DNA of 64,000 bases from Patescibacteria group bacterium (GTDB taxonomy: Bacteria; Patescibacteriota; Minisyncoccia; Minisyncoccales; PEYH01). Numbering within the stretch: position 1 is the first letter of the stretch; each line of letters begins with the position of its first letter. The notes under the pieces are model-generated. The model ran no database searches and was not told where the DNA came from. It worked only from the letters and a program-made list of their open reading frames with translations. Both the position numbers and the translations under genes were made by a program. The stretch spans positions 1 through 64,000 of the forward strand of contig JAHIFQ010000004.1 in NCBI GenBank assembly GCA_018900835.1, given 5' to 3'. Shown piece by piece: positions 10,347 to 63,042 of the stretch.

Positions 10347-10447
10347 GTTAAATAAAAAAAGAAGCGGGCGCCCAGACCTGGGACACGCTTCAATATGATA
10401 ATAGCAATCTCAAAATAATTGTCAAGTCCCCACGCAAAATACCACAC

Positions 10448-10468
10448 AAAAACCCCTGCTGGGTTTTT
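10448..10468 (+). repeat. Palindromic hairpin element copy 2 (AAAAACCC-CTGCT-GGGTTTTT)
   Basis: Same family. It sits 50 nt upstream of comM 5' fragment 1. Confidence 0.55.
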
Positions 10469-10490
10469 AAATTTGGAGAATTAAGATAAT

Positions 10491-10685
10491 ATGAAACAAG
10501 ATAAATCAATAAACAACAATATGTCTTCCAAAATATTCTCCGGAGCAGTTGTCGGTCTGGAAACCCAAATCATTGAGGTTGAATCAGATATTTCTTATGG
10601 ATTAAGGAGTTTTGAGATTGTGGGCTTGCCCGACAAAGCGGTAGAGGAGTCGACTGTCATCACAAAACATTCAAAGTGTTCTTGA
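10491..10685 (+). pseudogene. comM/yifB 5'-end fragment, copy 1 (displaced N-terminal 44 codons + unrelated tail)
   Basis: From the internal MSSKIFSGAVVGLETQIIEVESDISYGLRSFEIVGLPDKAVEES it is about 92% nt-identical to comM 13296-13427, then diverges. It carries an extra MKQDKSINNN leader. Confidence 0.75.
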
Positions 10686-10821
10686 AAACAAAACTCCTCC
10701 CGGTAGAAGAAATAATCGGGCATAGGGTTGAAGTAGAATTGATTGAAAAATAAACTTAACGCAACTTTGACAATATGCGTCTTTTTTGTCAAAATGGAAC
10801 AAATATTAATAAACTGTATAT

Positions 10822-11259
10822 ATGCCAAAAATACCCACTGGCAAATTAGCATCAATGCACATCTCTTATTCCTTTTTTCTTTATATGTTAGGGACGCAGA
10901 TTATTTTTCCCTCCTGGCCATATTTATTAAAGCTCATATTTACCATATTTATTATTCTATTATCAGTGTCTGGCTCTTTATGGTATTTCAAAAAGAGAGG
11001 ATATGTCATCGAAGAAAAACAAAAATTTCTTCGCTTGTCGGCAATTTGGTTTTTCTTGATAAATTTTAGTGTTCCAGTAATGTATACTATTTTGATAGTT
11101 TGGATAATGAGGACAGGCGCAAGTGCCACTGACCTTGCCAAAACATTTGCAATTTTCTTAGTGAGTTCAGGAATAACCACCCTTTTATTTTATTGGTTTA
11201 CTAAAAAACTCATGCCCAGAGTAGAAAGCGGTAAGAGCTTATTAAATTGGAAAAAATAA
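10822..11259 (+). CDS. 4-TM membrane protein, hypothetical (cargo between comM fragments)
   Basis: Four hydrophobic helices and no recognised motifs. Confidence 0.35.
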   Translation: MPKIPTGKLASMHISYSFFLYMLGTQIIFPSWPYLLKLIFTIFIILLSVSGSLWYFKKRGYVIEEKQKFLRLSAIWFFLINFSVPVMYTILIVWIMRTGASATDLAKTFAIFLVSSGITTLLFYWFTKKLMPRVESGKSLLNWKK

Positions 11260-11304
11260 AAAAAGGCATAGTGGAAAATAGCGCTAATTCCACTTTCTCT
11301 CTCT

Positions 11305-11328
11305 TGTCAACAACCAAAAACCCATCAC
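11305..11328 (+). repeat. Palindromic hairpin element copy 3 (CAAAAACCCA-TCAC-TGGGTTTTTG)
   Basis: Same family. Its 5' flank TTCTCTCTC..CAACAACC is shared with copy 5. Confidence 0.55.
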
Positions 11329-11383
11329 TGGGTTTTTGTGTTTAAGAAAGGCGGTTTCTCTTTTTTTTGTTATAGCGACTTTT

Positions 11384-11668
11384 TTAGCTAACAAATTCTA
11401 TTTTAATCCTTTTGTTAAATACTGAGGCAATTCTCTGAAGATTATCAGTAGTAAAATTCTGCCGCCCTGCTTCCATTCTAGCAATAACGCTTTGAGTTGT
11501 GCCAATCTTTTTAGCTAATCCCTGTTGTGATAAGTGTTTCTTCGCTCTCAATTGGACAATCTTATAAGCAACTTCAAGACGATGACATTCTTGTTTATAT
11601 CCCTTGTTGAAATTCTTATCTTTCATCTTGGCCCTAAAATGTTTTTCGTAATTAGTTAATTTAGTCAT
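11384..11668 (-). CDS. XRE-family HTH antitoxin (HigA-like)
   Basis: HTH motif LSQQGLAKKIGTTQSVIARMEAG. It lies downstream of, and overlaps by 8 nt, the RelE/HigB-like toxin gene. Confidence 0.6.
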   Translation of the reverse strand: MTKLTNYEKHFRAKMKDKNFNKGYKQECHRLEVAYKIVQLRAKKHLSQQGLAKKIGTTQSVIARMEAGRQNFTTDNLQRIASVFNKRIKIEFVS

Positions 11669-12029
11669 ATTTATTATTATTTATTAAAAAATCTCTATAA
11701 TTTTTTTCGGCTTTAATAATTTCTTTTTTTGGTGTTTTGCTTGTTTTCTTTAAAAACGCGTGTAAAAGAATAATTTTTTTGCTAACAAATGTAAAATAAA
11801 ATATTCTATGATGATTTTTGGAAAAACCAACTCTCAACTCTCTAATTTTCCCTTTAATGTGTTTTGAATACGGTTCATCCAAATATCCCTTCTTATCTTT
11901 TAATAATTCTAAATATGTAAAAACTTTTACCTGTTCTTTTTTAGACAGTTTATCAATGTATTCTTTCACGACTTCCTTTCCTTTAGAATCAATATAGTAA
12001 TAGATCCTATGGTCCCCTAAATATGTCAT
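11661..12029 (-). CDS. RelE/ParE-superfamily toxin, HigB/Gp49-like
   Basis: Blocks EPYSKHIKGKIRELR and RIFYF...IILLHAF.KK..KTP match the Gp49/HigB family. The toxin-first order matches HigBA. Confidence 0.6.
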   Translation of the reverse strand: MTYLGDHRIYYYIDSKGKEVVKEYIDKLSKKEQVKVFTYLELLKDKKGYLDEPYSKHIKGKIRELRVGFSKNHHRIFYFTFVSKKIILLHAFLKKTSKTPKKEIIKAEKNYRDFLINNNKYD

Positions 12030-12123
12030 ATTCTCTTTATAGCATATATGCTATATGCGTCAAGTATCTGCTGTGGATAACTCAACTAATATTTAAGGTA
12101 TAGTATTATCCTTATTATTTTCC

Positions 12124-12143
12124 CAAAACCCATTTCTGGGTTT
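12124..12143 (+). repeat. Palindromic hairpin element copy 4 (AAAACCCA-TTTC-TGGGTTTT)
   Basis: Same family. It sits 50 nt upstream of comM 5' fragment 2. Confidence 0.55.
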
Positions 12144-12167
12144 TTAAATTTGGAGAATTAAGATAAT

Positions 12168-12383
12168 ATGAAACAAGATAAATCAATAAACAACAATATG
12201 TCTTCCAAAATATTCTCCGGAGCTGTTGTCGGTTTGGAAACCCAAATCATTGAGGTTGAATCAGATATTTCTTATGGATTAAGGAGTTTTGAGATTGTGG
12301 GCTTGCCCGACAAAGCGGTAGAGGAATCAACTGTCGTCACAAAACATTCAAAGTGTTCTCTAAAACACAACTTCTTCCTATAG
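12168..12383 (+). pseudogene. comM/yifB 5'-end fragment, copy 2
   Basis: Same as copy 1, about 95% identical to it across roughly 320 bp including the 5' UTR. It diverges from comM after GCGGTAGAGGAATC. Confidence 0.75.
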
Positions 12384-12599
12384 CGGAAATAATCGGGCAT
12401 AAGGATGAAGCAAAATTGATTGAAAAATAGAATTGACACCACTTTTATAGGACTGAAGTAAAATTAATTGGAAAATAGACCTGACACCATTTTTCTATTT
12501 CATCATTTTCTCATCACCGTTTTTTTCATTTGATGACTGGCAGAAACAAACATGATATACTATAAAAAATTAGAGGAATAAAATTAATAAAATATATTT

Positions 12600-13100
12600 A
12601 TGAAAAATAAAACATTATTGATCGCGATAGTCGCCATTGTAGTATTGGCAATTTTAATTTTTTTAATACTTCTTATTAAGAATAAAACAGCTCCCGTAAT
12701 GTTCCCGACGGACGAGAAAGCTTGCGACGAAATACAGGGACAGAAATTGAAAGATTATTGTTATTTGGGTGCCGCTCAAGCCAAGCAAGACATGTCTATT
12801 TGTGAGATGATACAGGAGCAGTGGGTAAAAAATGACTGTTATTTAAATGTAGCTCAAGCCAAGCAAGATATCTCAATTTGTGAGAATATACAGGATCAAG
12901 AGAGGAAAGATGACTGTTATTTAAATGTAGCTCAAGTCAAGGAAGACATATCTCTTTGTGAGGGAATGCATGGACAGAACAAAAAAGATCTTTGTTATTT
13001 GCGCATTGCTCGAGCCAAGCAAGATATATCTATTTGTGAGATGATACAGGAGCAGAAGATAAAAGAAAATCTTTGTTATAGATACATAAATCCCCAATAA
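12600..13100 (+). CDS. Signal-anchored protein with four ~31-aa Cys-containing repeats (DCYLNVAQAKQDISICE..Q..K)
   Basis: An N-terminal hydrophobic anchor is followed by 4 tandem repeats, each with a conserved CYL...A.AKQD.S.CE pattern. Confidence 0.5.
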   Translation: MKNKTLLIAIVAIVVLAILIFLILLIKNKTAPVMFPTDEKACDEIQGQKLKDYCYLGAAQAKQDMSICEMIQEQWVKNDCYLNVAQAKQDISICENIQDQERKDDCYLNVAQVKEDISLCEGMHGQNKKDLCYLRIARAKQDISICEMIQEQKIKENLCYRYINPQ

Positions 13101-13224
13101 ATTCTGTTAAAATCCGCAATCGCAATTGGTATAAAAAAGTAGGCACACAGACATTGGACGCGCTTCAATATAATAGTGTTGAAAACGACATCAGGTCTAT
13201 TTTTCTCTCTCAAACAACAACCCT

Positions 13225-13245
13225 AAAACCCATCACTGGGTTTTT
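13225..13245 (+). repeat. Palindromic hairpin element copy 5 (AAAACCCA-TCAC-TGGGTTTT)
   Basis: Same family. It sits 50 nt upstream of intact comM. Confidence 0.55.
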
Positions 13246-13295
13246 GTGTTTGAAGAAAGATACATAATAGAATATTATGAATTATAATAAATATT

Positions 13296-14843
13296 ATGTC
13301 TTCCAAAATATTCTCCGGAGCTGTTGTCGGTCTGGAAACTCAAATTATTGAAGTGGAATCAGATATCTCCTATGGATTAAGGAGTTTTGAGATTGTGGGC
13401 TTGCCCGACAAAGCGGTAGAGGAATCAAAAGAAAGAATAAAATCAGCCATAAAGTCATGCGGTCTTCGTCCGCCTTTTTTAAAGCCAGAAAGAATCTTGA
13501 TTAACTTAGCGCCTGCTGATTTGAAAAAAGAAGGTTCGCTTTATGATTTACCCATTGCCATTGCTTATCTTGTAAAAAGCAAACAAATCAATGCAAATTG
13601 TGAAGGAAAGATGTTTGCCGGAGAATTATCATTAGATGGAACTCTGCGTCCCATAAAGGGAGCTCTTGCTTTTGCTCTTAAAGCCAACGAAGCAGATTTT
13701 CCTGAAATAATCCTGCCAATTGAAAATATGAAAGAAGCAACTCTGTGCCAAATCAATACCAATAAAAATAATTTAAGGATAATCGGAGTTGATTCTTTGC
13801 AAGCTGCGATAAATTATCTAGAAGGAAAAATAATCATTGAGCCAGCGATACTGGATATGAACGAGGTTGTTAAAAATAATGATTACAGGATTGGATTGGA
13901 TTGGGTAAAAGGACAAAACCATGCTAAAAGAGCTTTAATAATCGCTGCTGCCGGGGGCCACAATCTCTTACTTGTCGGGCCACCGGGCGGAGGAAAAAGC
14001 TTATTGGCAAAGTCCTTGCCTTCAATCTTGCCAGACTTATCAGCGGAAGAAATGCTTGAACTCACCAAAATCTACAGCATTTCCGGACTGCTTTCAAAAG
14101 AAGAACCGATTGTAACAAAGAGGCCTTTTCGCGCAGCCCACCACACTGCTTCCAAGGTTTCAATAATAGGGGGTGGCACTCCGATTCGGCCTGGCGAGAT
14201 TACTCTTGCCCACAGAGGAATTTTATTCTTAGACGAATTCCCGGAATTCAATAAAGATGTGCTGGAAGCGCTTAGGCAACCATTGGAAGACGGGACTATA
14301 ACTGTAATGCGGGCAGTTCAAAGAATCACATTTCCTTGCCATTTCAGTTTGATTGCTGCTGCCAATCCATGCCCTTGCGGACACTTAAACGACCCGAACA
14401 ATCCGTGCTCATGCACTCCCTCGCAAATAGCAAAATACAAACGCAAACTCTCGGGTCCGATAATTGACAGAATTGACATGGTGGTTGAATTGCCCCAAGT
14501 AGAGTTTGAAAAACTGACAGCTCCTGACAGCAATCAGGAAACAATTGAAGCAAGGGGAGAAATAGAAAAAGCAAGAAAGATTCAGAACGAGCGATTTCAA
14601 GAGAGTAAGATGATAACTAACAGCGAAATGGAGGTGCCGGAAATAAAAAAGCACTGCCAGATAAATTCATCATCAAACAATATCTTGAGGAGCTATGTTA
14701 ACTCTGGCAAACTCTCTGCCCGCGGTTATCATCGGGTATTAAAAATAGCCCGCACTATTGCGGACTTAGCAGGAACAGATGAGATTTTGCTTGAGAATCT
14801 ACACGAGGCATTAATGTATCGCCTCGCTGATATTTCTCACTAA
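13296..14843 (+). CDS. comM: Mg-chelatase-like AAA+ ATPase ComM/YifB
   Basis: 515 aa. Lon-like N-terminal domain, Walker A GPPGGGKS and the C-terminal ChlI-like region. Confidence 0.9.
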   Translation: MSSKIFSGAVVGLETQIIEVESDISYGLRSFEIVGLPDKAVEESKERIKSAIKSCGLRPPFLKPERILINLAPADLKKEGSLYDLPIAIAYLVKSKQINANCEGKMFAGELSLDGTLRPIKGALAFALKANEADFPEIILPIENMKEATLCQINTNKNNLRIIGVDSLQAAINYLEGKIIIEPAILDMNEVVKNNDYRIGLDWVKGQNHAKRALIIAAAGGHNLLLVGPPGGGKSLLAKSLPSILPDLSAEEMLELTKIYSISGLLSKEEPIVTKRPFRAAHHTASKVSIIGGGTPIRPGEITLAHRGILFLDEFPEFNKDVLEALRQPLEDGTITVMRAVQRITFPCHFSLIAAANPCPCGHLNDPNNPCSCTPSQIAKYKRKLSGPIIDRIDMVVELPQVEFEKLTAPDSNQETIEARGEIEKARKIQNERFQESKMITNSEMEVPEIKKHCQINSSSNNILRSYVNSGKLSARGYHRVLKIARTIADLAGTDEILLENLHEALMYRLADISH

Positions 14844-50470: not shown

Positions 50471-50812
50471 TTGAAAAGAGACGAGGAATGGGGTAATATT
50501 AAAGCAGATATGGAAAAAATACCCCAATTTTTGCAGAAATATTTTTGGGATGTGGAATTTTTAACCCTGGACATAAAAAAGCACTCACAATTTGTTATTG
50601 AGAGGATTTTAGAATATGGAGACAAAAAATCAATAAAATGGATGGAAGATAATTTTCCTTCAGAAGAAATTAAAAATACCCTTTCTATTTCCAAAAACCT
50701 TTCGCAAAAATCAGCCAATTTTTGGCAGCTTATTTTTGATTTAGATAAGAATAAAATTTTATGCTTGAACAAATCATTTCAAAAAAAACACAAAGCAATC
50801 TGGAGATATTAA
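50471..50812 (+). CDS. Hypothetical protein overlapping the AbiEii-like gene start; candidate cognate antitoxin
   Basis: 113 aa with no HTH recognised. The assignment rests on the 52-nt overlap with the downstream NTase gene. Confidence 0.25.
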   Translation: MKRDEEWGNIKADMEKIPQFLQKYFWDVEFLTLDIKKHSQFVIERILEYGDKKSIKWMEDNFPSEEIKNTLSISKNLSQKSANFWQLIFDLDKNKILCLNKSFQKKHKAIWRY

Positions 50813-51378
50813 AAAAATCAGGCCTGATTGCAAATTTTTATCTTGTTGGCGGCACAGGGTTGGCTTTATATTTAAAGCATCGCATTTCTGTTGATTTGGA
50901 TTTTTTCAGCAAAAAAGAGTTCAACAGCCAATCAATGATTCAGAAGATTAAAAAGTTAGGTAAATTTTCAATCGCAAAAGAATCAGAAAATACTTTGACA
51001 GGAGTTTTTAATGACACAAAAATCGCTTTTTTGACATACGATTATCCGCTTCTTTTTCCGTTGAAAAAAATTGGCAATATTAATGTTGCTGACATAAAAG
51101 ATATCGCTTGTATGAAAATTTCTGCGATTTCTTCCCGTGGAAGCAAGAAGGACTTTATTGATTTATACTTTATTTGCCAGCAGGGCATTTCATTAAAACA
51201 GGCATTAGTATTGTTTGAAAAGAAATATAAGAGCATTGATTATAATATGGTGCATATTTTGAAAAGTTTGGTCTTTTTTGATGATGCTCACAATGACCCT
51301 ATGCCAAAAATGTTAGTTCCCGTTATGTGGGAACAGGTTAAGAGATTTTTTCAAGAAAAAGTAAAAACGAGTCAATGA
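50761..51378 (+). CDS. AbiEii/AbiGii-family nucleotidyltransferase (type IV TA toxin-like)
   Basis: NFYLVGGTGLALYLKHRISVDLDFF matches the GG.AL....HR.S.D.D signature of the AbiEii NTase family. Confidence 0.55.
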   Translation: MLEQIISKKTQSNLEILKKSGLIANFYLVGGTGLALYLKHRISVDLDFFSKKEFNSQSMIQKIKKLGKFSIAKESENTLTGVFNDTKIAFLTYDYPLLFPLKKIGNINVADIKDIACMKISAISSRGSKKDFIDLYFICQQGISLKQALVLFEKKYKSIDYNMVHILKSLVFFDDAHNDPMPKMLVPVMWEQVKRFFQEKVKTSQ

Positions 51379-51500
51379 TTTCTTTTATCAGGGGTAAAAT
51401 AAAAGCAAAAGATGAAGAATTTGTTATTGTTGAAAACAATGATATTGGTTTTAAGGTTTTTGTTTCCCCAAAGACCTTGGAAAAATTAAATATAGGAGAG
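51375..51500 (+). pseudogene. ruvA 5'-end fragment (first 42 codons), 100% identical to the start of intact ruvA at 53298
   Basis: 128-bp perfect direct repeat 51373-51500 = 53296-53423. The ORF 51375..51575 reads through into unrelated GC-rich sequence. Confidence 0.8.
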
Positions 51501-51689
51501 GTCGGGTTCGACGCGTACAGGGTCGGCTATGCCTATCAGCACTGTGGGTCGGCGTCCGGCTTTCTCCCGCAGTAGCGCTTTGTACTCTTGAGACTTTTGA
51601 ACCCTTTTGGGGGTTTGATTCCTTGTCTCCGGAGCGAAAAACATGAACGAGGGCTGGCCACACATGGTGGACAGCCCTCCTCCTCTTTT
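51501..51689 (+). ncRNA. GC-rich (~58% versus ~35% window) structured-RNA-like segment ending in an intrinsic terminator; identity unknown
   Basis: Starts GTCGGGTTCGACGCG (resembling the tmRNA 5' GGAUUCGACGGG motif). Contains GUCCGGCUUUCUCC and the hairpin GGGCUG-GCCACACAUGGUGGA-CAGCCC followed by UCCUCCUCUUUU. Confidence 0.3.
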
Positions 51690-51957
51690 AAAATATGTAT
51701 AGATTTGATATACTGATAAATGAGTATAGGCTAATGTATAGCAGTTTACGGATTGCTATCGCCGAACTCTCTCTTCAATAAAGAAAGAGAAAAAACAACC
51801 AGAATCTTGACGACTACGGTTTTCAAGAGCGAGTTGTCTTGAGGAGATACTGCTTGCTTCTGTCTATGGTAGATGTCCTGAGTTTATTAATGGGCTGCTA
51901 CCGAATAAAATACAGGAAGAAGTAGAGAAATTAGGGACGTGTAGCATTTTACTTAAA

Positions 51958-53004
51958 TTGTTAAAAATAAATATGAATAATTTTAAAAATTATTTAATAG
52001 CACAAATCAAAAAATTAACTAGCAATAAAAAAAATGTATGGATAACTGGCATTGTTATATTAATTTTAATTATTTCAATAGGAGCATGGAAAGTACTGAG
52101 CAATAAAACGCCTCTTGATATAAACTCGTCAATTGAAGAAGTATCCTTGGGCACGGATAAGACTGAACACTCTCAAGGCGAAGAAAAAGTAACCTTGGTC
52201 ACAGATAAGACAGAATATGCTCAAGGTGAAAGCGTGAAAATTGATATTTCTAATTTAACAACGAAAAATATTGAATATAGTCCAAGTTTCTCGCCATGTT
52301 GCGGCGGTGTTTTTATAGATAAAAAGAATAGTGAAAATGTATGGAAACGTATTTATACTTCAATTGCTGAGCCACGAATAGGACCATCTTCGTCAGAAGA
52401 AAGAATGAATGAGGGCTGGCTCTTGCTAGAACCAAAGATACAAATACAAATAGAATCGGACATGTTGGTACAAGTCGAAGGATCAAGAATTCAAGCTCCA
52501 GCTGGCATTTATCGAATTGGATTTAGATGGTATTATTCGTCTTCAGAAGACGGCAATGTGTCTTATTCTAACGAGTTTATGATTGAAGGAGATGAGAAAA
52601 TGAGTTTTAACAAACAACCAACTGTTTCAACAAATAAATTAGAGTATGTACAAGGCGAAGAAATTATAATAAAAATACACAATCAAGGTACGCCTATTTT
52701 TTATCAGCCCAATCTTTGTCAACCAGAGTGTTGCTTTGCTCAAAAAACTATAAATGGAAGATTTAGAGTAGTAGATATATCACCATGCCTATCACCACCC
52801 CAAGCTCCACCTGGCGTAGACTTCGAAAGGATTCCTAGCAAGATAGAATCTGGGGAAGAAATTATTGAAATATTAGAAACAAATCCAGAATGGGAAGATG
52901 AAATAGAAGTTGGCACCTATAGACTCTTTTTTTATTATTCACGTAACGAAGAAATGCAAGATAGCCATGCTGTATACTCTAACGAGTTTACAATTAGTCA
53001 ATAG
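51958..53004 (+). CDS. Signal-anchored protein with three internal ~90-aa repeats (..KTEY.QGE..KI.I.N.....YSNEF.I)
   Basis: An N-terminal TM (VWITGIVILILIISIGAW). The repeats end in YSNEFMIEG and YSNEFTISQ, each with conserved CC and QPEC pairs. Confidence 0.45.
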   Translation: MLKINMNNFKNYLIAQIKKLTSNKKNVWITGIVILILIISIGAWKVLSNKTPLDINSSIEEVSLGTDKTEHSQGEEKVTLVTDKTEYAQGESVKIDISNLTTKNIEYSPSFSPCCGGVFIDKKNSENVWKRIYTSIAEPRIGPSSSEERMNEGWLLLEPKIQIQIESDMLVQVEGSRIQAPAGIYRIGFRWYYSSSEDGNVSYSNEFMIEGDEKMSFNKQPTVSTNKLEYVQGEEIIIKIHNQGTPIFYQPNLCQPECCFAQKTINGRFRVVDISPCLSPPQAPPGVDFERIPSKIESGEEIIEILETNPEWEDEIEVGTYRLFFYYSRNEEMQDSHAVYSNEFTISQ

Positions 53005-53297
53005 TTATAGCAAATTAGGCAAATTAGAGACGTGTACCATTTTACCCATTTTACTGAATGCGTTCAACAAGGGGAGCTGTTCCAAAAACCCTCTATTCAT
53101 GAGGGTTTTTGAATCATTTGGCGTAGGATGTTAGAACTTTTTCAATTGGTCCATCCCGCGCAAAACATTATGTCGCCTCCTTGTGTGCGGTTTTTTTACA
53201 TTGAGCGTGATATAAAGTCAAATTTTGAAAATAATTGTTTGAAAATGATAGCGAGTGGGTAGTTGAAAACAGGCGGGGAATAGGGTAATATTAAACA

Positions 53298-53867
53298 ATG
53301 ATTTCTTTTATCAGGGGTAAAATAAAAGCAAAAGATGAAGAATTTGTTATTGTTGAAAACAATGATATTGGTTTTAAGGTTTTTGTTTCCCCAAAGACCT
53401 TGGAAAAATTAAATATAGGAGAGATAGTAGAGTTTTTTATTTTTTTCGCTATTCGCAATGAAAAGCCGGAATTATACGGGCTTTTGACGCAGGAAGAATT
53501 AAGGGTCTTTGAAATTATAGAAAAAGTTTCAGGAATCGGGCCCAAAGGAGCAATGCTTATCGCCTCATTGGGAACATTTGACGAGCTTAAAGAAGCCATA
53601 GAAATCCAGGATTTTGGTTTTTTCTCCAAAATTAAAGGAATCGGGAAAAAGAAAATTCAGAAGATTATCTTGGAATTAGGGGGCAGCATAAAAAGAATCG
53701 AGGAAATAAAAGATAAAAGTCCGCAACAAGACGAGGCATTCAGGGGCTTGGTAGCATTAGGGTTTTCTCAAAAAGAAGCGAAAGAGGCGTTATCAAATGT
53801 GCCAATGGAAGTCAAAGACACGAGTCAAAGAGTCCAACAGGCGTTAAGACAATTCACAAAGAAATGA
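53298..53867 (+). CDS. ruvA: Holliday junction DNA helicase RuvA
   Basis: OB-fold N-terminus, HhH motifs (GIGPKGA, IKGIGKK) and a C-terminal domain III. Confidence 0.9.
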   Translation: MISFIRGKIKAKDEEFVIVENNDIGFKVFVSPKTLEKLNIGEIVEFFIFFAIRNEKPELYGLLTQEELRVFEIIEKVSGIGPKGAMLIASLGTFDELKEAIEIQDFGFFSKIKGIGKKKIQKIILELGGSIKRIEEIKDKSPQQDEAFRGLVALGFSQKEAKEALSNVPMEVKDTSQRVQQALRQFTKK

Positions 53868-60290: not shown

Positions 60291-60362
60291 GTCCCTGTGG
60301 TTCAATGGATAAAACACCTCCCTCCGGAGGAGGAAATGGCTGTTCGAATCAGCCCAGGGACA
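60291..60362 (+). tRNA. tRNA-Arg (anticodon CCG)
   Basis: Acceptor GTCCCTG/CAGGGAC, anticodon arm CCTCC-CTCCGGA-GGAGG, T-arm GGCTG-TTCGAAT-CAGCC, discriminator A. Confidence 0.8.
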
Positions 60363-60429
60363 CAAGATTCGAACCCTACCCCCGGAGCAATATTTGACAC
60401 AATCTTTGTAGTTAATATATAATAAAAAT

Positions 60430-62950: not shown

Positions 62951-63005
62951 AAAATTAGCTCAATATCCGGAGTAGGAGATAGCTGTTCGAATCAGCCAAG
63001 AGACA
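62951..63005 (+). pseudogene. tRNA-like fragment: D-arm-like TAGCTCAAT + 3' half (anticodon-loop TCCGGAG through T-arm GCTGTTCGAATCAGCC and acceptor 3' strand) resembling tRNA-Arg(CCG)
   Basis: TCCGGAGTAGGAGATAGCTGTTCGAATCAGCCAAGAGACA compared with tRNA-Arg TCCGGAGGAGGAAATGGCTGTTCGAATCAGCCCAGGGACA (33/40). No matching 5' acceptor strand is present. Confidence 0.4.
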
Positions 63006-63042
63006 CAACTAAATTAGAGATGTTTATTATTTTTGTTTAAAT

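What the first reader, a model, noticed from the sequence alone, without database searches (positions are those of the whole stretch)
51373..53423. 128-bp perfect direct repeat of the ruvA start flanks a 1.8-kb insert (GC-rich RNA-like segment + repeat-protein gene)
51373-51500 and 53296-53423 are 100% identical, comprising CA + ATG + the first 41 codons of ruvA. The upstream copy runs into unrelated sequence and is a dead fragment. The downstream copy heads the intact gene with a different upstream region. Perfect identity, against 92-97% at comM, argues for a very recent event. The insert contains no recombinase.
Basis: seen in the sequence. Interest (0 to 1): 0.7.

Follow-up and report, generated by a model that had tools for sequence, protein, structure and literature searches.

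The report
Retroelement remnant between duplicated ruvA starts
The 1.8-kb insert between two identical copies of the start of ruvA is the decayed remains of a diversity-generating retroelement (a mutagenic reverse-transcriptase cassette common in these tiny bacteria), so this is an ordinary though instructive recombination scar and not a new mobile element or RNA gene.

Summary
Window 51373-51500 and 53296-53423 are identical over exactly 128 nt (CA + ruvA codons 1-42). The same layout occurs in several independent assemblies, including a k=141 contig that spans the repeat.

The interpretation needs revising. The "GC-rich RNA-like segment" is the last 24 codons of a diversity-generating-retroelement (DGR) target gene, that is, the 3' part of its variable region. 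It is fused in frame to the upstream ruvA fragment and followed by that gene's conserved post-VR element and terminator.

A related Patescibacteria genome (L008) carries the intact cassette at the same rpsT-ruvA locus: target gene/VR, structured leader RNA "S", template repeat, bAvd and reverse transcriptase. There, VR and TR differ only at TR adenines. The window keeps the VR tail, S and the cassette's right end with a second copy of the ruvA promoter. TR, avd and RT have been replaced by an orphan Ig-like surface-protein gene.

Sister genomes L007/L010 show the empty site (AbiE-like toxin-antitoxin directly abutting ruvA). L009 has neither module.

The duplication is best explained as a recombination scar: homology in ruvA plus one illegitimate join (ruvA nt 126 | VR nt 46). 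Gene conversion may have kept the copies identical. No recombinase is involved, the VR tail is frozen, and interest is modest.

The parts
50471..50503 (+). P1: native rpsT-ruvA intergenic promoter (TTGAAA-17-TAATAT), now driving the toxin-antitoxin pair
   Evidence: The 33-nt motif occurs only here and at 53263-53295 in the window. It is predicted as a sigma-70-like promoter and is orthologous to the single P of L007/L009.
50513..51378 (+). DUF6922 + AbiEii (type IV toxin-antitoxin-like pair); the stop codon overlaps the ruvA' ATG (ATGA)
   Evidence: Pfam PF21956 and PF08843. L007 and L008 have the same TA|ruvA junction. Synonymous divergence is about 3-fold lower than in flanking genes.
51373..51500 (+). 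R1: upstream copy of CA + ruvA codons 1-42, at its ancestral position next to the TA pair
51375..51575 (+). 66-aa chimeric ORF: RuvA residues 1-42 fused in frame to the last 24 residues of a DGR target protein (...GSASGFLPQ*)
   Evidence: ORF list. L008 target C-terminus ...NYGSASGFLPQ*. tblastn of the L008 target hits only 51495-51575.
51501..51575 (+). Variable-region (VR) remnant: corresponds to template-repeat positions 46-117, plus the stop codon
   Evidence: Aligned to the L008 TR, 10 of 17 adenine positions differ against 4 of 55 other positions, Fisher p = 2.3e-5. nhmmer with a TR/VR profile gives E = 4e-16. GC is 64%.
51576..51692 (+). Post-VR conserved element (CTCTTGRGRCTTTTGAWCCCTT hairpin region) and the intrinsic terminator of the former target gene
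   Evidence: Conserved downstream of target genes in L008, L014, L025, L026 and L013, with terminator stems that differ in sequence but keep their position. Fold of the region.
51707..51925 (+). S: promoter-proximal structured leader RNA of the DGR template transcript, here orphaned (no TR follows) and lying upstream of the 343-aa gene
   Evidence: Promoter TTTAAA-16-TATACT with TG at 51687-51714. S homologues sit directly upstream of TR in all complete cassettes of the family. Of 54 consensus pairs, 18 show compensatory change; 94% are paired against 39-48% in slid controls. No Rfam match.
51928..51952 (+). 25-nt direct repeat, copy 1, flanking the 343-aa gene (the segment that replaces TR-avd-RT starts here)
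   Evidence: homology to L008 ends at 51921
51973..53004 (+). Orphan membrane-anchored protein with two divergent Ig-like (Big_14-like) halves; occupies the place of TR-avd-RT
   Evidence: Only itself plus 4 weak Big_14 relatives among 5.8 billion proteins. Sub-threshold Big_14 hit. The two halves are 30% identical.
53021..53045 (+). 25-nt direct repeat, copy 2 (23/25 identical to copy 1)
53131..53262 (+). E: right-end non-coding segment of the DGR cassette (follows the RT stop codon in L008)
   Evidence: Alignment to L008 6956-7096
53263..53295 (+). P2: second copy of the ruvA promoter (88% identical to P1), now driving the intact ruvA
   Evidence: The P|CAATG junction is identical in form to L009.
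53296..53423 (+). R2: downstream copy of the repeat, the 5' end of the intact gene
53298..53867 (+). Intact ruvA (189 aa)
   Evidence: Pfam RuvA_N, HHH_5, RuvA_C

Best explanation
The insert is the decayed remnant of a chromosomal diversity-generating retroelement (DGR) cassette of the Patescibacteria type, which occupies the rpsT-ruvA intergenic region in this lineage.

The intact cassette (seen in L008/L012) has this order: duplicated ruvA promoter P1, GC-rich target gene ending in the variable region (VR), post-VR element and terminator, promoter, structured leader RNA S, template repeat (TR), bAvd on the opposite strand, reverse transcriptase, segment E, promoter P2.

In the window, the target gene upstream of VR position 46 has been replaced by the DUF6922-AbiEii toxin-antitoxin pair plus the first 126 nt of ruvA. 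That is the block which sits directly in front of ruvA in sister genomes. The result is an in-frame ruvA'(1-42)-VR(24 aa) chimera. TR, avd and RT have been replaced by an orphan Ig-like surface-protein gene.

The 128-nt direct repeat is therefore a recombination scar. It has one homologous partner (ruvA 5' end and/or the rpsT-P region) and one illegitimate join (ruvA nt 126 | VR nt 46, with at most 2 nt of microhomology).

Inferred history:
- The ancestor was rpsT-P1-DGR-E-P2-ruvA.
- The toxin-antitoxin block arrived later by recombination with DNA from a relative that carried P-TA-ruvA.
- In the L007 lineage, both crossovers were homologous and the DGR was lost.
- In the L008 lineage, the block landed behind P2.
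- In the window lineage, the right-hand join was illegitimate and fell inside VR.

An equivalent formal description is Campbell-type insertion of a 1923-bp circle (VR'...E-P2-R) into ruvA of an L007-like chromosome. The two R copies are identical either because the event is recent or because gene conversion homogenises them.

Functional state now: P1 drives TA plus the chimeric ORF up to the old target-gene terminator. The S promoter probably drives the surface-protein gene. P2 drives ruvA. The retroelement is dead here and the VR tail is frozen.

Shown: the identity of every segment, the empty site, both junction types, adenine-specific VR/TR differences, and the absence of RT/Avd/TR in the window. 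Inferred: the order of events, the recombination mechanism, and gene conversion.
For: 1. L008 carries, between rpsT and the TA-ruvA block, a 300-aa GC-rich ORF, a 117-nt repeat pair, bAvd (PF22296) and an RT (RVT_1, IGNLTSQ/YTDD).
2. The TR is identical in L008, L011 and L012. The VRs of L008 and L012 differ from it at 11 and 13 positions, all TR adenines, with 0 of 89 other positions changed.
3. Window 51502-51921 matches L008 4853-5304 (78.6%), and 53174-53295 matches L008 7003-7129 (85%).
4. The window's VR tail differs from the TR at 10 of 17 adenines against 4 of 55 other sites, p = 2.3e-5.
5. The 66-aa ORF ends ...GSASGFLPQ*, like the L008 target.
6. There is no RT, Avd or TR anywhere in the window.
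7. There is no difference between the window and L001/L002/L005 across the insert.
8. Empty site: L007 and L010 have AbiEii (stop) overlapping the ruvA start with nothing between. L009 has P directly on ruvA.
9. Both left junctions of the repeat reproduce junctions seen in relatives (TA|CAATGA and P|CAATGA). The right junction of R1 continues as TR position 46.
10. P occurs only at this locus and is duplicated around the cassette in L008 as well.
11. The TA genes have dS 0.34-0.49 against 1.2-1.4 for holA, rpsT, the rest of ruvA, and murE. This indicates the TA block was exchanged after the backbones diverged.
12. RT-less or frameshifted relatives of the cassette are common (L013, L015, L026).
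Against: - The predicted intermediate (DGR cassette directly in front of ruvA without the TA pair) was not found among the few relatives available.
- If R1 came from a donor as diverged as the TA genes suggest, R1 and R2 should differ. Their identity needs an extra assumption (gene conversion, or a nearly identical donor).
- Starting from an L008-like ancestor, an intragenomic route needs at least three steps.
- The low dS of ruvA codons 1-42 rests on about 25 synonymous sites. It is largely due to a 37-nt stretch that is invariant in all four lineages, so it does not show that R travelled with the TA block.
- A similar 5' duplication of about 130 nt at comM hints at a more systematic process than a one-off illegitimate join.
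Confidence: 0.8

Rival explanations
1. The 1.9-kb unit is a (decayed) site-specific integrative element whose attachment site is the 5' end of ruvA. The element carries its own promoter plus a replacement 5' end, the way tRNA-targeting islands restore the 3' end of their target. The integrase was lost or acts in trans.
For: - Direct repeats bound the insert exactly, and the intact gene is regenerated behind an element-borne promoter.
- The same design (first 44 codons repeated, small integrase-less cargos) is seen three times at comM, a classical integration hotspot.
- A partial tRNA-Arg repeat also lies in the window.
Against: - There is no recombinase in the insert, in the comM cargos examined, or in the homologous L008 cassette.
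- The homologous cassette in L008 is bounded by the 33-nt promoter P, not by R.
- The left end of the 'element' falls in the middle of a variable region, 24 codons before the stop of a gene that is full-length in L008. That is a truncation point, not an element end.
- P2 and E are orthologous to chromosomal sequence of relatives.
Confidence: 0.07
2. The tandem structure is an assembly artefact. The population really contains an empty chromosome (TA-R-ruvA) plus a separate molecule or strain carrying R-VR'...P2-R, and assemblers threaded them through the shared 128-nt repeat.
For: - In a graph with k < 128, the two solutions have identical edges.
- Short-k assemblies and the NCBI MAG break at the repeat.
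- The Logan contig L002 also breaks at 53129, hinting at a co-occurring variant.
Against: - The ENA contig k141_379626 (L005) passes through both copies without a break, and at k=141 a 128-nt repeat is spanned.
- At least three long contigs (50-200 kb) from different assemblies carry AbiEii, the 343-aa gene and the ligase together.
- The R|VR' junction is read-supported in four assemblies. It would still require the same illegitimate join to have happened on some molecule.
Confidence: 0.04
3. The join between ruvA nt 126 and the variable region was made by the retroelement's own machinery. During retrohoming, the cDNA (or the strand primed from it) switched template from TR/VR to the neighbouring TA-ruvA sequence and was resolved at the duplicated promoter. 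This replaced the target gene's 5' part with a copy of TA-ruvA'.
For: - The breakpoint lies inside VR, the only place where DGR cDNA is integrated, and the 3' side (IMH region, post-VR element) is intact.
- The left boundary of the replaced segment is the duplicated promoter P, which could have provided the homology for resolution.
- 5' cDNA integration is known to be homology-dependent, and transplanted IMH + hairpin suffices to target heterologous genes (PMC3240598).
- Roux et al. proposed recombination as the way VR modules acquire new N-terminal domains (PMC8144416).
Against: - This route predicts a second TA copy behind P2, which is absent.
- Microhomology at the join is only about 2 nt.
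- Nothing distinguishes it from ordinary break repair.
- No RT remains to test.
Confidence: 0.05
4. The GC-rich stretch 51501-51690 is a free-standing structured non-coding RNA gene.
For: - It has 54% GC in a 31-37% GC background.
- The fold z-score is -3.4, and the stretch ends in a hairpin plus U-run.
Against: - There is no Rfam or tmRNA/tRNA match.
- The first 75 nt are the in-frame, protein-level-conserved end of a 300-aa ORF in L008 and about 2,700 homologues.
- The high GC is a property of that gene family whatever the host (58-63%).
- The hairpins are the gene's post-VR element and terminator.
- The real RNA element (S) lies further downstream, at 51707-51925.
Confidence: 0.02

Closest known systems
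Chromosomal DGRs of Candidate Phyla Radiation / Patescibacteria (DGR clade 2 of Roux et al. 2021, PMC8144416; 'CPR set' of Wu et al. 2018, PMC5758913)
   Same: - The homologous cassette in L008/L012 has RT, bAvd and a TR/VR pair with adenine-only differences.
- The VR is at the 3' end of a target gene with no recognisable Pfam domain.
- The target-gene GC deviates from the host.
- The family is very large: at least 2,714 target and at least 7,429 RT homologues in Parcubacteria, Pacebacteria, Vogelbacteria and Nealsonbacteria.
   Different: - The window copy lacks RT, Avd, TR and all but 24 codons of the target gene.
- The VR tail is fused to a RuvA N-terminal fragment and shows no variation between assemblies.
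- It is a remnant, not a working DGR.
Bordetella phage BPP-1 DGR target site (IMH plus downstream hairpin/cruciform; Guo et al. 2011, PMC3240598) and DGR RNA scaffold (Handa et al., bioRxiv 10.1101/2023.10.23.563531)
   Same: - A conserved element with inverted repeats lies just downstream of VR.
- There is a fixed VR/TR difference at the 3' end (position 115, A in TR and C in all VRs).
- The TR is embedded in structured flanking RNA (S).
   Different: - In this family the large structured RNA segment (about 200 nt) lies 5' of TR, behind its own promoter.
- avd is on the opposite strand, between TR and RT.
- The function of these elements is untested here.
Campbell-type (single-crossover) insertion and homology-facilitated illegitimate recombination (my knowledge: de Vries & Wackernagel 2002 and related work on natural transformation)
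   Same: - The insert is bounded by perfect direct repeats equal to a stretch of the target gene.
- One junction is homologous.
- One junction has at most 2 nt of microhomology.
- The empty site in relatives equals one repeat copy.
   Different: Neither a donor molecule nor a circular intermediate has been observed, and natural competence of this organism is unknown.
Arrays of decayed integrative elements flanked by repeated att fragments (CIMEs of streptococcal ICEs, tycheposon islands of Prochlorococcus; my knowledge)
   Same: - Small cargos without integrase sit between repeated fragments of a conserved gene.
- This is seen at ruvA and, three-fold, at comM in the same window.
   Different: - No recombinase was found in any version.
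- The repeated fragment is the 5' end of a protein gene.
- The ruvA insert's ends are a truncated gene and native promoter sequence, not element ends.

Membership tests
Diversity-generating retroelement (functional DGR) | Reverse transcriptase of the DGR type encoded nearby | tested here: not met
   tblastn of the L008 RT against the whole 64-kb window gives nothing better than E = 2. In L008 the feature is met: RVT_1 at 1e-21 with IGNLTSQ and YTDD motifs.
Diversity-generating retroelement (functional DGR) | Template repeat (TR) paired with the variable repeat | tested here: not met
   The window holds only one TR/VR-like sequence, 51494-51572. L008, L011 and L012 each have a TR.
Diversity-generating retroelement (functional DGR) | VR/TR differences confined to TR adenines | tested here: met
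   L008 shows 11 of 11 differences at adenines and L012 shows 13 of 13. The window's VR tail, compared with the L008 TR, differs at 10 of 17 adenines against 4 of 55 other sites, p = 2.3e-5. This shows descent from a diversified VR, not present activity.
Diversity-generating retroelement (functional DGR) | Accessory variability determinant (Avd) | tested here: not met
   There is no Avd in the window. bAvd PF22296 is present in L008, L014, L025 and L026.
Diversity-generating retroelement (functional DGR) | VR at the 3' end of a target ORF, followed by a conserved recognition element or hairpin | tested here: met
   The VR tail ends 3 nt before the stop codon. The downstream motif CTCTTGRGRCTTTTGAWCCCTT is conserved in five cassettes. 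Function is not testable here.
Diversity-generating retroelement (functional DGR) | Ongoing diversification (VR differs between samples or strains) | tested here: not met
   There are 0 differences in 51373-53423 among the window, L001, L002 and L005. By contrast, the VRs of L008 and L012 differ while their TRs are identical.
Diversity-generating retroelement (functional DGR) | Variable region within a C-type-lectin or Ig fold | tested here: inconclusive
   The AlphaFold2 model of the target family had a mean pLDDT of 39, too poor for fold comparison. There is no Pfam hit.
Site-specific integrative element (att duplication) | Integrase or recombinase in or next to the element | tested here: not met
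   The only ORF of at least 75 aa in the insert is the 343-aa protein, which has no Pfam family. The neighbours are the TA pair, ruvA and a Mur ligase.
Site-specific integrative element (att duplication) | Homologous elements share the same ends and att in other genomes | tested here: not met
   The homologous cassette in L008/L012 is bounded by the 33-nt promoter P, and its left part continues into a full-length gene.
Recombination scar (Campbell-type / homology-facilitated illegitimate recombination) | Direct repeats identical to a segment of the target, with the empty site in relatives equal to one copy | tested here: met
Recombination scar (Campbell-type / homology-facilitated illegitimate recombination) | One novel junction without extended homology | tested here: met
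   The junction reads R ...GGAGAG|GTCGGG... and the TR reads ...GGCAAG|CTCAAG..., so at most 2 nt are shared at the join.
Recombination scar (Campbell-type / homology-facilitated illegitimate recombination) | Donor or circular intermediate | not testable with these tools
   This needs raw reads or a broader genome survey. The genome and metagenome scans were exhausted.
Known RNA families (Rfam, tRNA, tmRNA) | Covariance-model or ARAGORN match to 51501-51925 | tested here: not met
   No match at gathering score. Only chance-level hits at E <= 10. ARAGORN finds nothing there.

The most novel reading that the evidence does not exclude
The ruvA'-VR chimera (and perhaps the analogous comM' fragments) was produced by a systematic process and not by a one-off accident. 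In this reading, the DGR's retrohoming intermediate, or a shared cassette-insertion mechanism, captures the first ~130 nt of the downstream housekeeping gene and regenerates that gene behind a cassette-borne promoter. That would be a route by which DGR variable modules acquire new N-terminal partners and by which integrase-less cassettes move in CPR genomes.
Probability: 0.06. Interest if true: 0.7.

Novelty: new member of a known kind. Interest (0 to 1): 0.35.

Why it matters
The analysis turns an apparently enigmatic "insert without recombinase" into a readable history. One intergenic spot (rpsT-ruvA) in ultra-small Patescibacteria has repeatedly taken up, reshuffled and lost two accessory modules: a DGR and an AbiE-like toxin-antitoxin pair.

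It documents how a DGR dies. RT, Avd and TR are lost, and the target gene is truncated inside its variable region. It also gives a concrete example of a VR tail fused in frame to a foreign N-terminal fragment, the kind of recombination proposed to create new DGR targets.

As a by-product, it defines a conserved ~200-nt structured RNA (S), supported by covariation, that precedes the template repeat in a very large CPR DGR family and is absent from Rfam. That could help annotate such DGRs and guide mechanistic work.

For genome annotation, GC-rich islands in AT-rich CPR genomes can be DGR target-gene fragments and not RNA genes.

Tried and rejected
1. tmRNA / tRNA-like idea for the GC-rich segment (GGTTCGAC motif). 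ARAGORN and Rfam were negative, and the motif is part of the VR coding sequence.
2. Rfam at E <= 10 over 51300-53400 gave only chance-level hits.
3. Exact-protein look-up of RuvA was not on record.
4. Viral-contig scans for S:
   - A 45-nt degenerate pattern found nothing.
   - An 18-mer found 8 loci, six of them an unrelated phage gene family sharing the word by chance.
   - A 17-mer found only L021/L023.
   - The target protein against viral contigs gave one distant locus, L024, without S.
5. Search for flanking direct repeats around other cassettes of the family (L013-L015) found none, so promoter/5'-end duplication is not a general signature of this DGR. The P motif occurs only at the rpsT-ruvA locus.
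6. Looking for a sibling RT from the same population: the closest non-L008 RT (P0127, 80%) sits on 1.3-kb contigs without informative flanks.
7. The low synonymous divergence of ruvA codons 1-42 as evidence that R travelled with the TA block was rejected as weak. It rests on about 25 sites and is dominated by a 37-nt stretch invariant in all four lineages.
8. Structure prediction of the target family gave pLDDT 39, which is unusable, so no fold search was run.
9. A single-step intragenomic derivation from an L008-like arrangement was rejected. Every route leaves a second TA copy behind P2, which is not there.

Full report
**1. The observation**

The two stretches 51373-51500 and 53296-53423 are identical over exactly 128 nt, spaced 1923 nt apart, with no third copy in the window. 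They comprise CA, ATG and 41 further codons of ruvA.

The downstream copy heads an intact 189-aa RuvA with RuvA_N, HHH_5 and RuvA_C domains. The upstream copy continues into other sequence.

The window comes from a Patescibacteria (CPR) genome, going by the NCBI name attached to the insert's protein. It has 37% GC overall.

**2. Is it an assembly artefact?**

Independent assemblies were recovered by exact-protein look-ups:
- ENA contig k141_379626 (L005, 60.9 kb) has the same order: AbiEii, 66-aa RuvA_N fragment, 343-aa gene, RuvA, ligase. It aligns to the window through both repeat copies without a break. A contig named k141_ comes from a k=141 MEGAHIT graph (my knowledge), where a 128-nt repeat is spanned by single k-mers.
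- The NCBI MAG contig JAHIGO010000005.1 (L001) starts 59 nt inside the upstream copy and runs across the R|insert junction.
- Logan k=31 contigs break 30 nt inside the repeat edges, as expected for a real repeat (L002, L003, L004, L006).

The novel junction is thus read-supported in four assemblies. I could not inspect reads, so a mixture of an empty chromosome and a 1.9-kb circle is not formally excluded, but L005 argues against it.

**3. What the insert is**

Relatives of the ruvA locus were fetched with RuvA as query and compared by blastn. Four configurations exist:
- **L009:** rpsT, a 33-nt promoter P (TTGAAA-17-TAATAT), then ruvA.
- **L007 and L010:** rpsT, P, DUF6922, AbiEii, ruvA. The AbiEii stop overlaps the ruvA start (ATGA). 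This is the empty site for the window's insert.
- **L008, L011 and L012:** rpsT, a degenerate P1, then a 3.3-kb cassette, then P2, DUF6922, AbiEii, ruvA.
- **The window:** described in section 4.

The L008-type cassette is a diversity-generating retroelement (DGR). Its parts are:
- a 300-aa GC-rich ORF (58% GC against 39% for the locus) ending ...NYGSASGFLPQ*;
- a 117-nt repeat of the ORF's 3' end located 557 nt downstream;
- a bAvd gene (PF22296) on the opposite strand;
- a reverse transcriptase (RVT_1, with IGNLTSQ and YTDD motifs).

The downstream repeat (TR) is identical in L008, L011 and L012. The ORF copies (VR) differ from it at 11 positions in L008 and 13 in L012. All of these are TR adenines, and none of the 89 other positions differs. 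This is the defining signature of DGR mutagenic retrohoming, and it shows the element is active in that lineage.

**4. Mapping the window onto the cassette**

- Window 51502-51921 matches L008 4853-5304 (78.6%).
- Window 53174-53295 matches L008 7003-7129 (85%), with weaker similarity from about 53131, right after the L008 RT stop codon.

The first 75 nt of the insert correspond to TR positions 46-117 plus the stop codon. They continue the reading frame of the ruvA fragment and give a 66-aa ORF: MISF...KLNIGE|VGFDAYRVGYAYQHCGSASGFLPQ*.

Compared with the L008 TR, this VR tail differs at 10 of 17 adenine positions but only 4 of 55 other positions (Fisher p = 2.3e-5). It is therefore a formerly diversified variable region.

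The remaining GC-rich stretch (51576-51692) has two parts:
- a motif conserved just downstream of the stop codon in five cassettes of the family (CTCTTGRGRCTTTTGAWCCCTT, with inverted repeats);
- the target gene's intrinsic terminator, whose stem differs in sequence but not in position between cassettes.

This corresponds in position to the IMH-proximal hairpin/cruciform region that Guo et al. showed to be required for target recognition in phage BPP-1 (PMC3240598).

So the "GC-rich RNA-like segment" is a gene tail plus its cis elements. Rfam and ARAGORN find nothing there.

**5. The real RNA element (S)**

Downstream of the terminator lies a promoter (TTTAAA-16-TATACT with an upstream TG). 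It is followed by a ~200-nt segment, S (51707-51925).

- S is 76-79% identical to sequences in distant Pacebacteria and IMG/VR contigs (L014, L021, L023, L025) and recognisable in L026.
- In every complete cassette it sits directly upstream of TR in the RT's orientation. It is missing from RT-less loci (L013, L015).
- A consensus structure of 54 pairs has 18 pairs with compensatory changes. 94.4% of cells are paired against 39-48% when partners are slid, and 0 of 500 shuffles reach the observed covariation (only six sequences from about four lineages).

This fits the finding that DGR templates must be embedded in structured flanking RNA, with related elements predicted in CPR DGRs (bioRxiv 10.1101/2023.10.23.563531).

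In the window, S is orphaned. No TR follows it, and the whole window contains no TR, Avd or RT.

**6. What replaced TR-avd-RT**

Between 51922 and about 53130 the window carries a 343-aa gene instead. It has:
- an N-terminal membrane anchor;
- two halves that are 30% identical to each other;
- only four weak Big_14 (bacterial Ig-like) relatives among 5.8 billion proteins.

The gene is flanked by a 25-nt direct repeat (51928-51952 and 53021-53045, 23 of 25 identical, unique in the window). The meaning of this repeat is unexplained.

After segment E comes P2 (53263-53295). It is 88% identical to P1 (50471-50503); the pair is unique in the window and the motif occurs only at this locus among all fetched loci. 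P2 abuts ruvA exactly as P does in L009.

**7. How the duplication arose (inference)**

- The left junction of R1 (AbiEii|CAATGA) is the ancestral junction of L007/L008.
- The left junction of R2 (P|CAATGA) is the junction of L009.
- The right junction of R2 is ordinary ruvA.
- Only the right junction of R1 (ruvA nt 126 | VR nt 46) is novel, and it shares at most 2 nt with the VR sequence it replaced.

Relative to an L007-like chromosome, the structure equals insertion of a 1923-bp unit (VR'...E-P2-R) by a single crossover in R.

Relative to a cassette-bearing ancestor, the structure equals replacement of the target gene's first ~830 nt by the block TA + ruvA(1-126). One end was anchored in rpsT/P1 homology and the other joined illegitimately inside VR.

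I favour the second view. The TA genes are markedly younger than their surroundings. Synonymous divergence between the window and L007 is:

| Gene or segment | dS |
|---|---|
| DUF6922 | 0.34 |
| AbiEii | 0.49 |
| holA | 1.39 |
| rpsT | 1.29 |
| ruvA codons 43-189 | 1.16 |
| Mur ligase | 1.30 |

The same pattern holds against L008. By contrast, S and E are about as diverged from L008 (79-85% nucleotide identity) as the backbone.

A single ancestor, rpsT-P1-DGR-E-P2-ruvA, that later received the TA block from relatives would explain all three derived states through different crossover points:
- L007: the DGR was deleted.
- L008: TA landed behind P2.
- The window: the illegitimate join fell in VR.

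Weak points:
- That ancestor was not observed.
- The identity of R1 and R2 then needs gene conversion (bounded by the 128 nt of homology) or a nearly identical donor.
- The apparently low dS of ruvA codons 1-42 (0.36) is not usable as evidence. It rests on about 25 sites and on a 37-nt stretch that is invariant in all four lineages.

**8. Rivals**

- **Site-specific integrative element with att in ruvA.** This is suggested by the parallel at comM. The first 44 codons are repeated three times, at 93% identity between the first two 300-nt copies, with small integrase-less cargos between them; comM' is joined to what looks like the 3' end of another ORF. For ruvA, however, no recombinase exists in any version, the homologous cassette in L008 is bounded by P and not R, and the 'element end' is a truncation point inside a gene.
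- **DGR-mediated template switch.** This would explain why the breakpoint is inside VR, but it predicts a second TA copy behind P2, which is absent.
- **Assembly artefact.** Addressed in section 2.

**9. Comparison with known systems and novelty**

CPR DGRs are well documented (clade 2 of Roux et al., PMC8144416; the CPR set of Wu et al., PMC5758913). The documented features include targets without recognisable domains, deviating GC, and horizontal transfer.

The family found here is very large: at least 2,714 target homologues and at least 7,429 RT homologues, about 70% identical across several CPR phyla. It lands between housekeeping genes, for example between rpsJ and rplC in L014, in line with Wu et al.'s remark on ribosomal protein genes within CPR DGRs. 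It decays often: L013 and L015 have targets only, and in L026 the RT is split.

The window copy fails the membership test for a functional DGR: no RT, TR or Avd, and no variation among four assemblies. It passes the tests for descent from one.

It is therefore a new, decayed member of a known kind, embedded in an ordinary recombination scar. The chimeric RuvA(1-42)-VR tail illustrates the intragenic recombination that Roux et al. proposed for generating new targets. However, it retains only 24 residues of the variable domain and is very probably non-functional.

**10. Verdict**

- The insert's identity is settled with high confidence (about 0.95).
- The recombination history is plausible but unproven (about 0.5).
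- Overall interest is modest (0.35). The S RNA and the repeated 5'-fragment duplications (ruvA, comM) are the leads most worth following.

Noticed in passing
window 10447-13521 (comM at 13296-14843): The first 44 codons (132 nt) of comM occur three times: 10521.., 12199.., and the intact gene at 13296. The first two copies sit in 300-nt blocks that are 93% identical. Each block has an upstream terminator hairpin and an N-terminal extension (MKQDKSINNN), and is joined to about 105 nt that read like the 3' end of another ORF (...KTFKVFLKTKLLPVEEIIGHRVEVELIEK*). Between the copies lie small cargos without any integrase: a 145-aa membrane protein, a toxin/XRE-like pair on the minus strand, and a 166-aa repeat protein. 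The design matches that at ruvA (126 nt), which may point to a shared process.
   Followed up: partly
window 51707-51925; L008:5056-5308; L014:5597-5800(-); L025:3093-3296(-); L021:2215-2418(-); L026:4535-4775: A conserved ~200-nt structured RNA (S) with its own promoter lies immediately 5' of the template repeat in a very large CPR DGR family. Of 54 pairs, 18 show compensatory change. It is not in Rfam. In the window it survives without TR/RT and now precedes the orphan surface-protein gene.
   Followed up: yes
window 50513-51372 vs L007:7136-8000 and L008:7136-8000: The DUF6922-AbiEii toxin-antitoxin pair has about 3-fold lower synonymous divergence (0.34-0.74) than flanking housekeeping genes (1.2-2.9). 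This suggests recent horizontal exchange of the module among these lineages. The module sits behind P1 in the window but behind P2 in L008.
   Followed up: partly
window 53355-53391 (ruvA codons ~20-32; also 51432-51468): A 37-nt stretch (GAAAACAATGATATTGGTTTTAAGGTTTTTGTTTC) is nearly invariant at the nucleotide level (a single G/A difference, in L009) in the window, L007, L008 and L009, although synonymous sites elsewhere are near saturation. It is not conserved in L013. The cause is unknown: codon bias, an internal signal, or a recombination-related site.
   Followed up: partly
window 51928-51952 and 53021-53045: A 25-nt direct repeat (AAATTAGrGACGTGTAsCATTTTAC, 23 of 25 identical) brackets the 343-aa gene that replaces TR-avd-RT. 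It is unique in the window and its significance is unexplained.
   Followed up: partly
window ~53100-53130 (end of Logan contig L002 at 53129): The k=31 contig from SRR9644739 ends exactly where similarity to the L008 post-RT segment E begins. This hints at a co-occurring variant that shares E but differs upstream, possibly a sibling strain with an intact RT.
   Followed up: no
L008:4024-4926, L013:6001-6978, L014:6001-6900, L015:6001-6900, L025:3501-4394, L026:3501-4421: Target genes of this DGR family are 58-63% GC whatever the host locus GC (38-52%), whereas avd and RT in L008 are host-like (32-33%). A GC-rich island in an AT-rich CPR genome can therefore be a DGR target gene or a fragment of one.
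   Followed up: partly
L013 (GW2011_GWC1_38_17), L015, L026, L014: Decay and odd placements of the cassette are common. L013 and L015 have a target gene only, with no RT, TR or S. In L013 the gene again lies between rpsT and ruvA-proximal genes. In L026 the RT is split into two ORFs. In L014 the whole cassette sits between rpsJ and rplC inside the ribosomal protein operon.
   Followed up: partly
window 60291-60363 and 62966-63008: The 3' half of tRNA-Arg(CCG) is repeated at 88% identity 2.6 kb downstream, with typA/bipA (minus strand) in between. This may be an old att-like scar.
   Followed up: no
window 12722-13064: Four tandem 78-nt units (69-80% identical) lie inside the 166-aa signal-peptide protein of the comM-proximal cargo. 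Each unit encodes a Cys-containing repeat (...DCYLNVAQAKQDISICE...).
   Followed up: no
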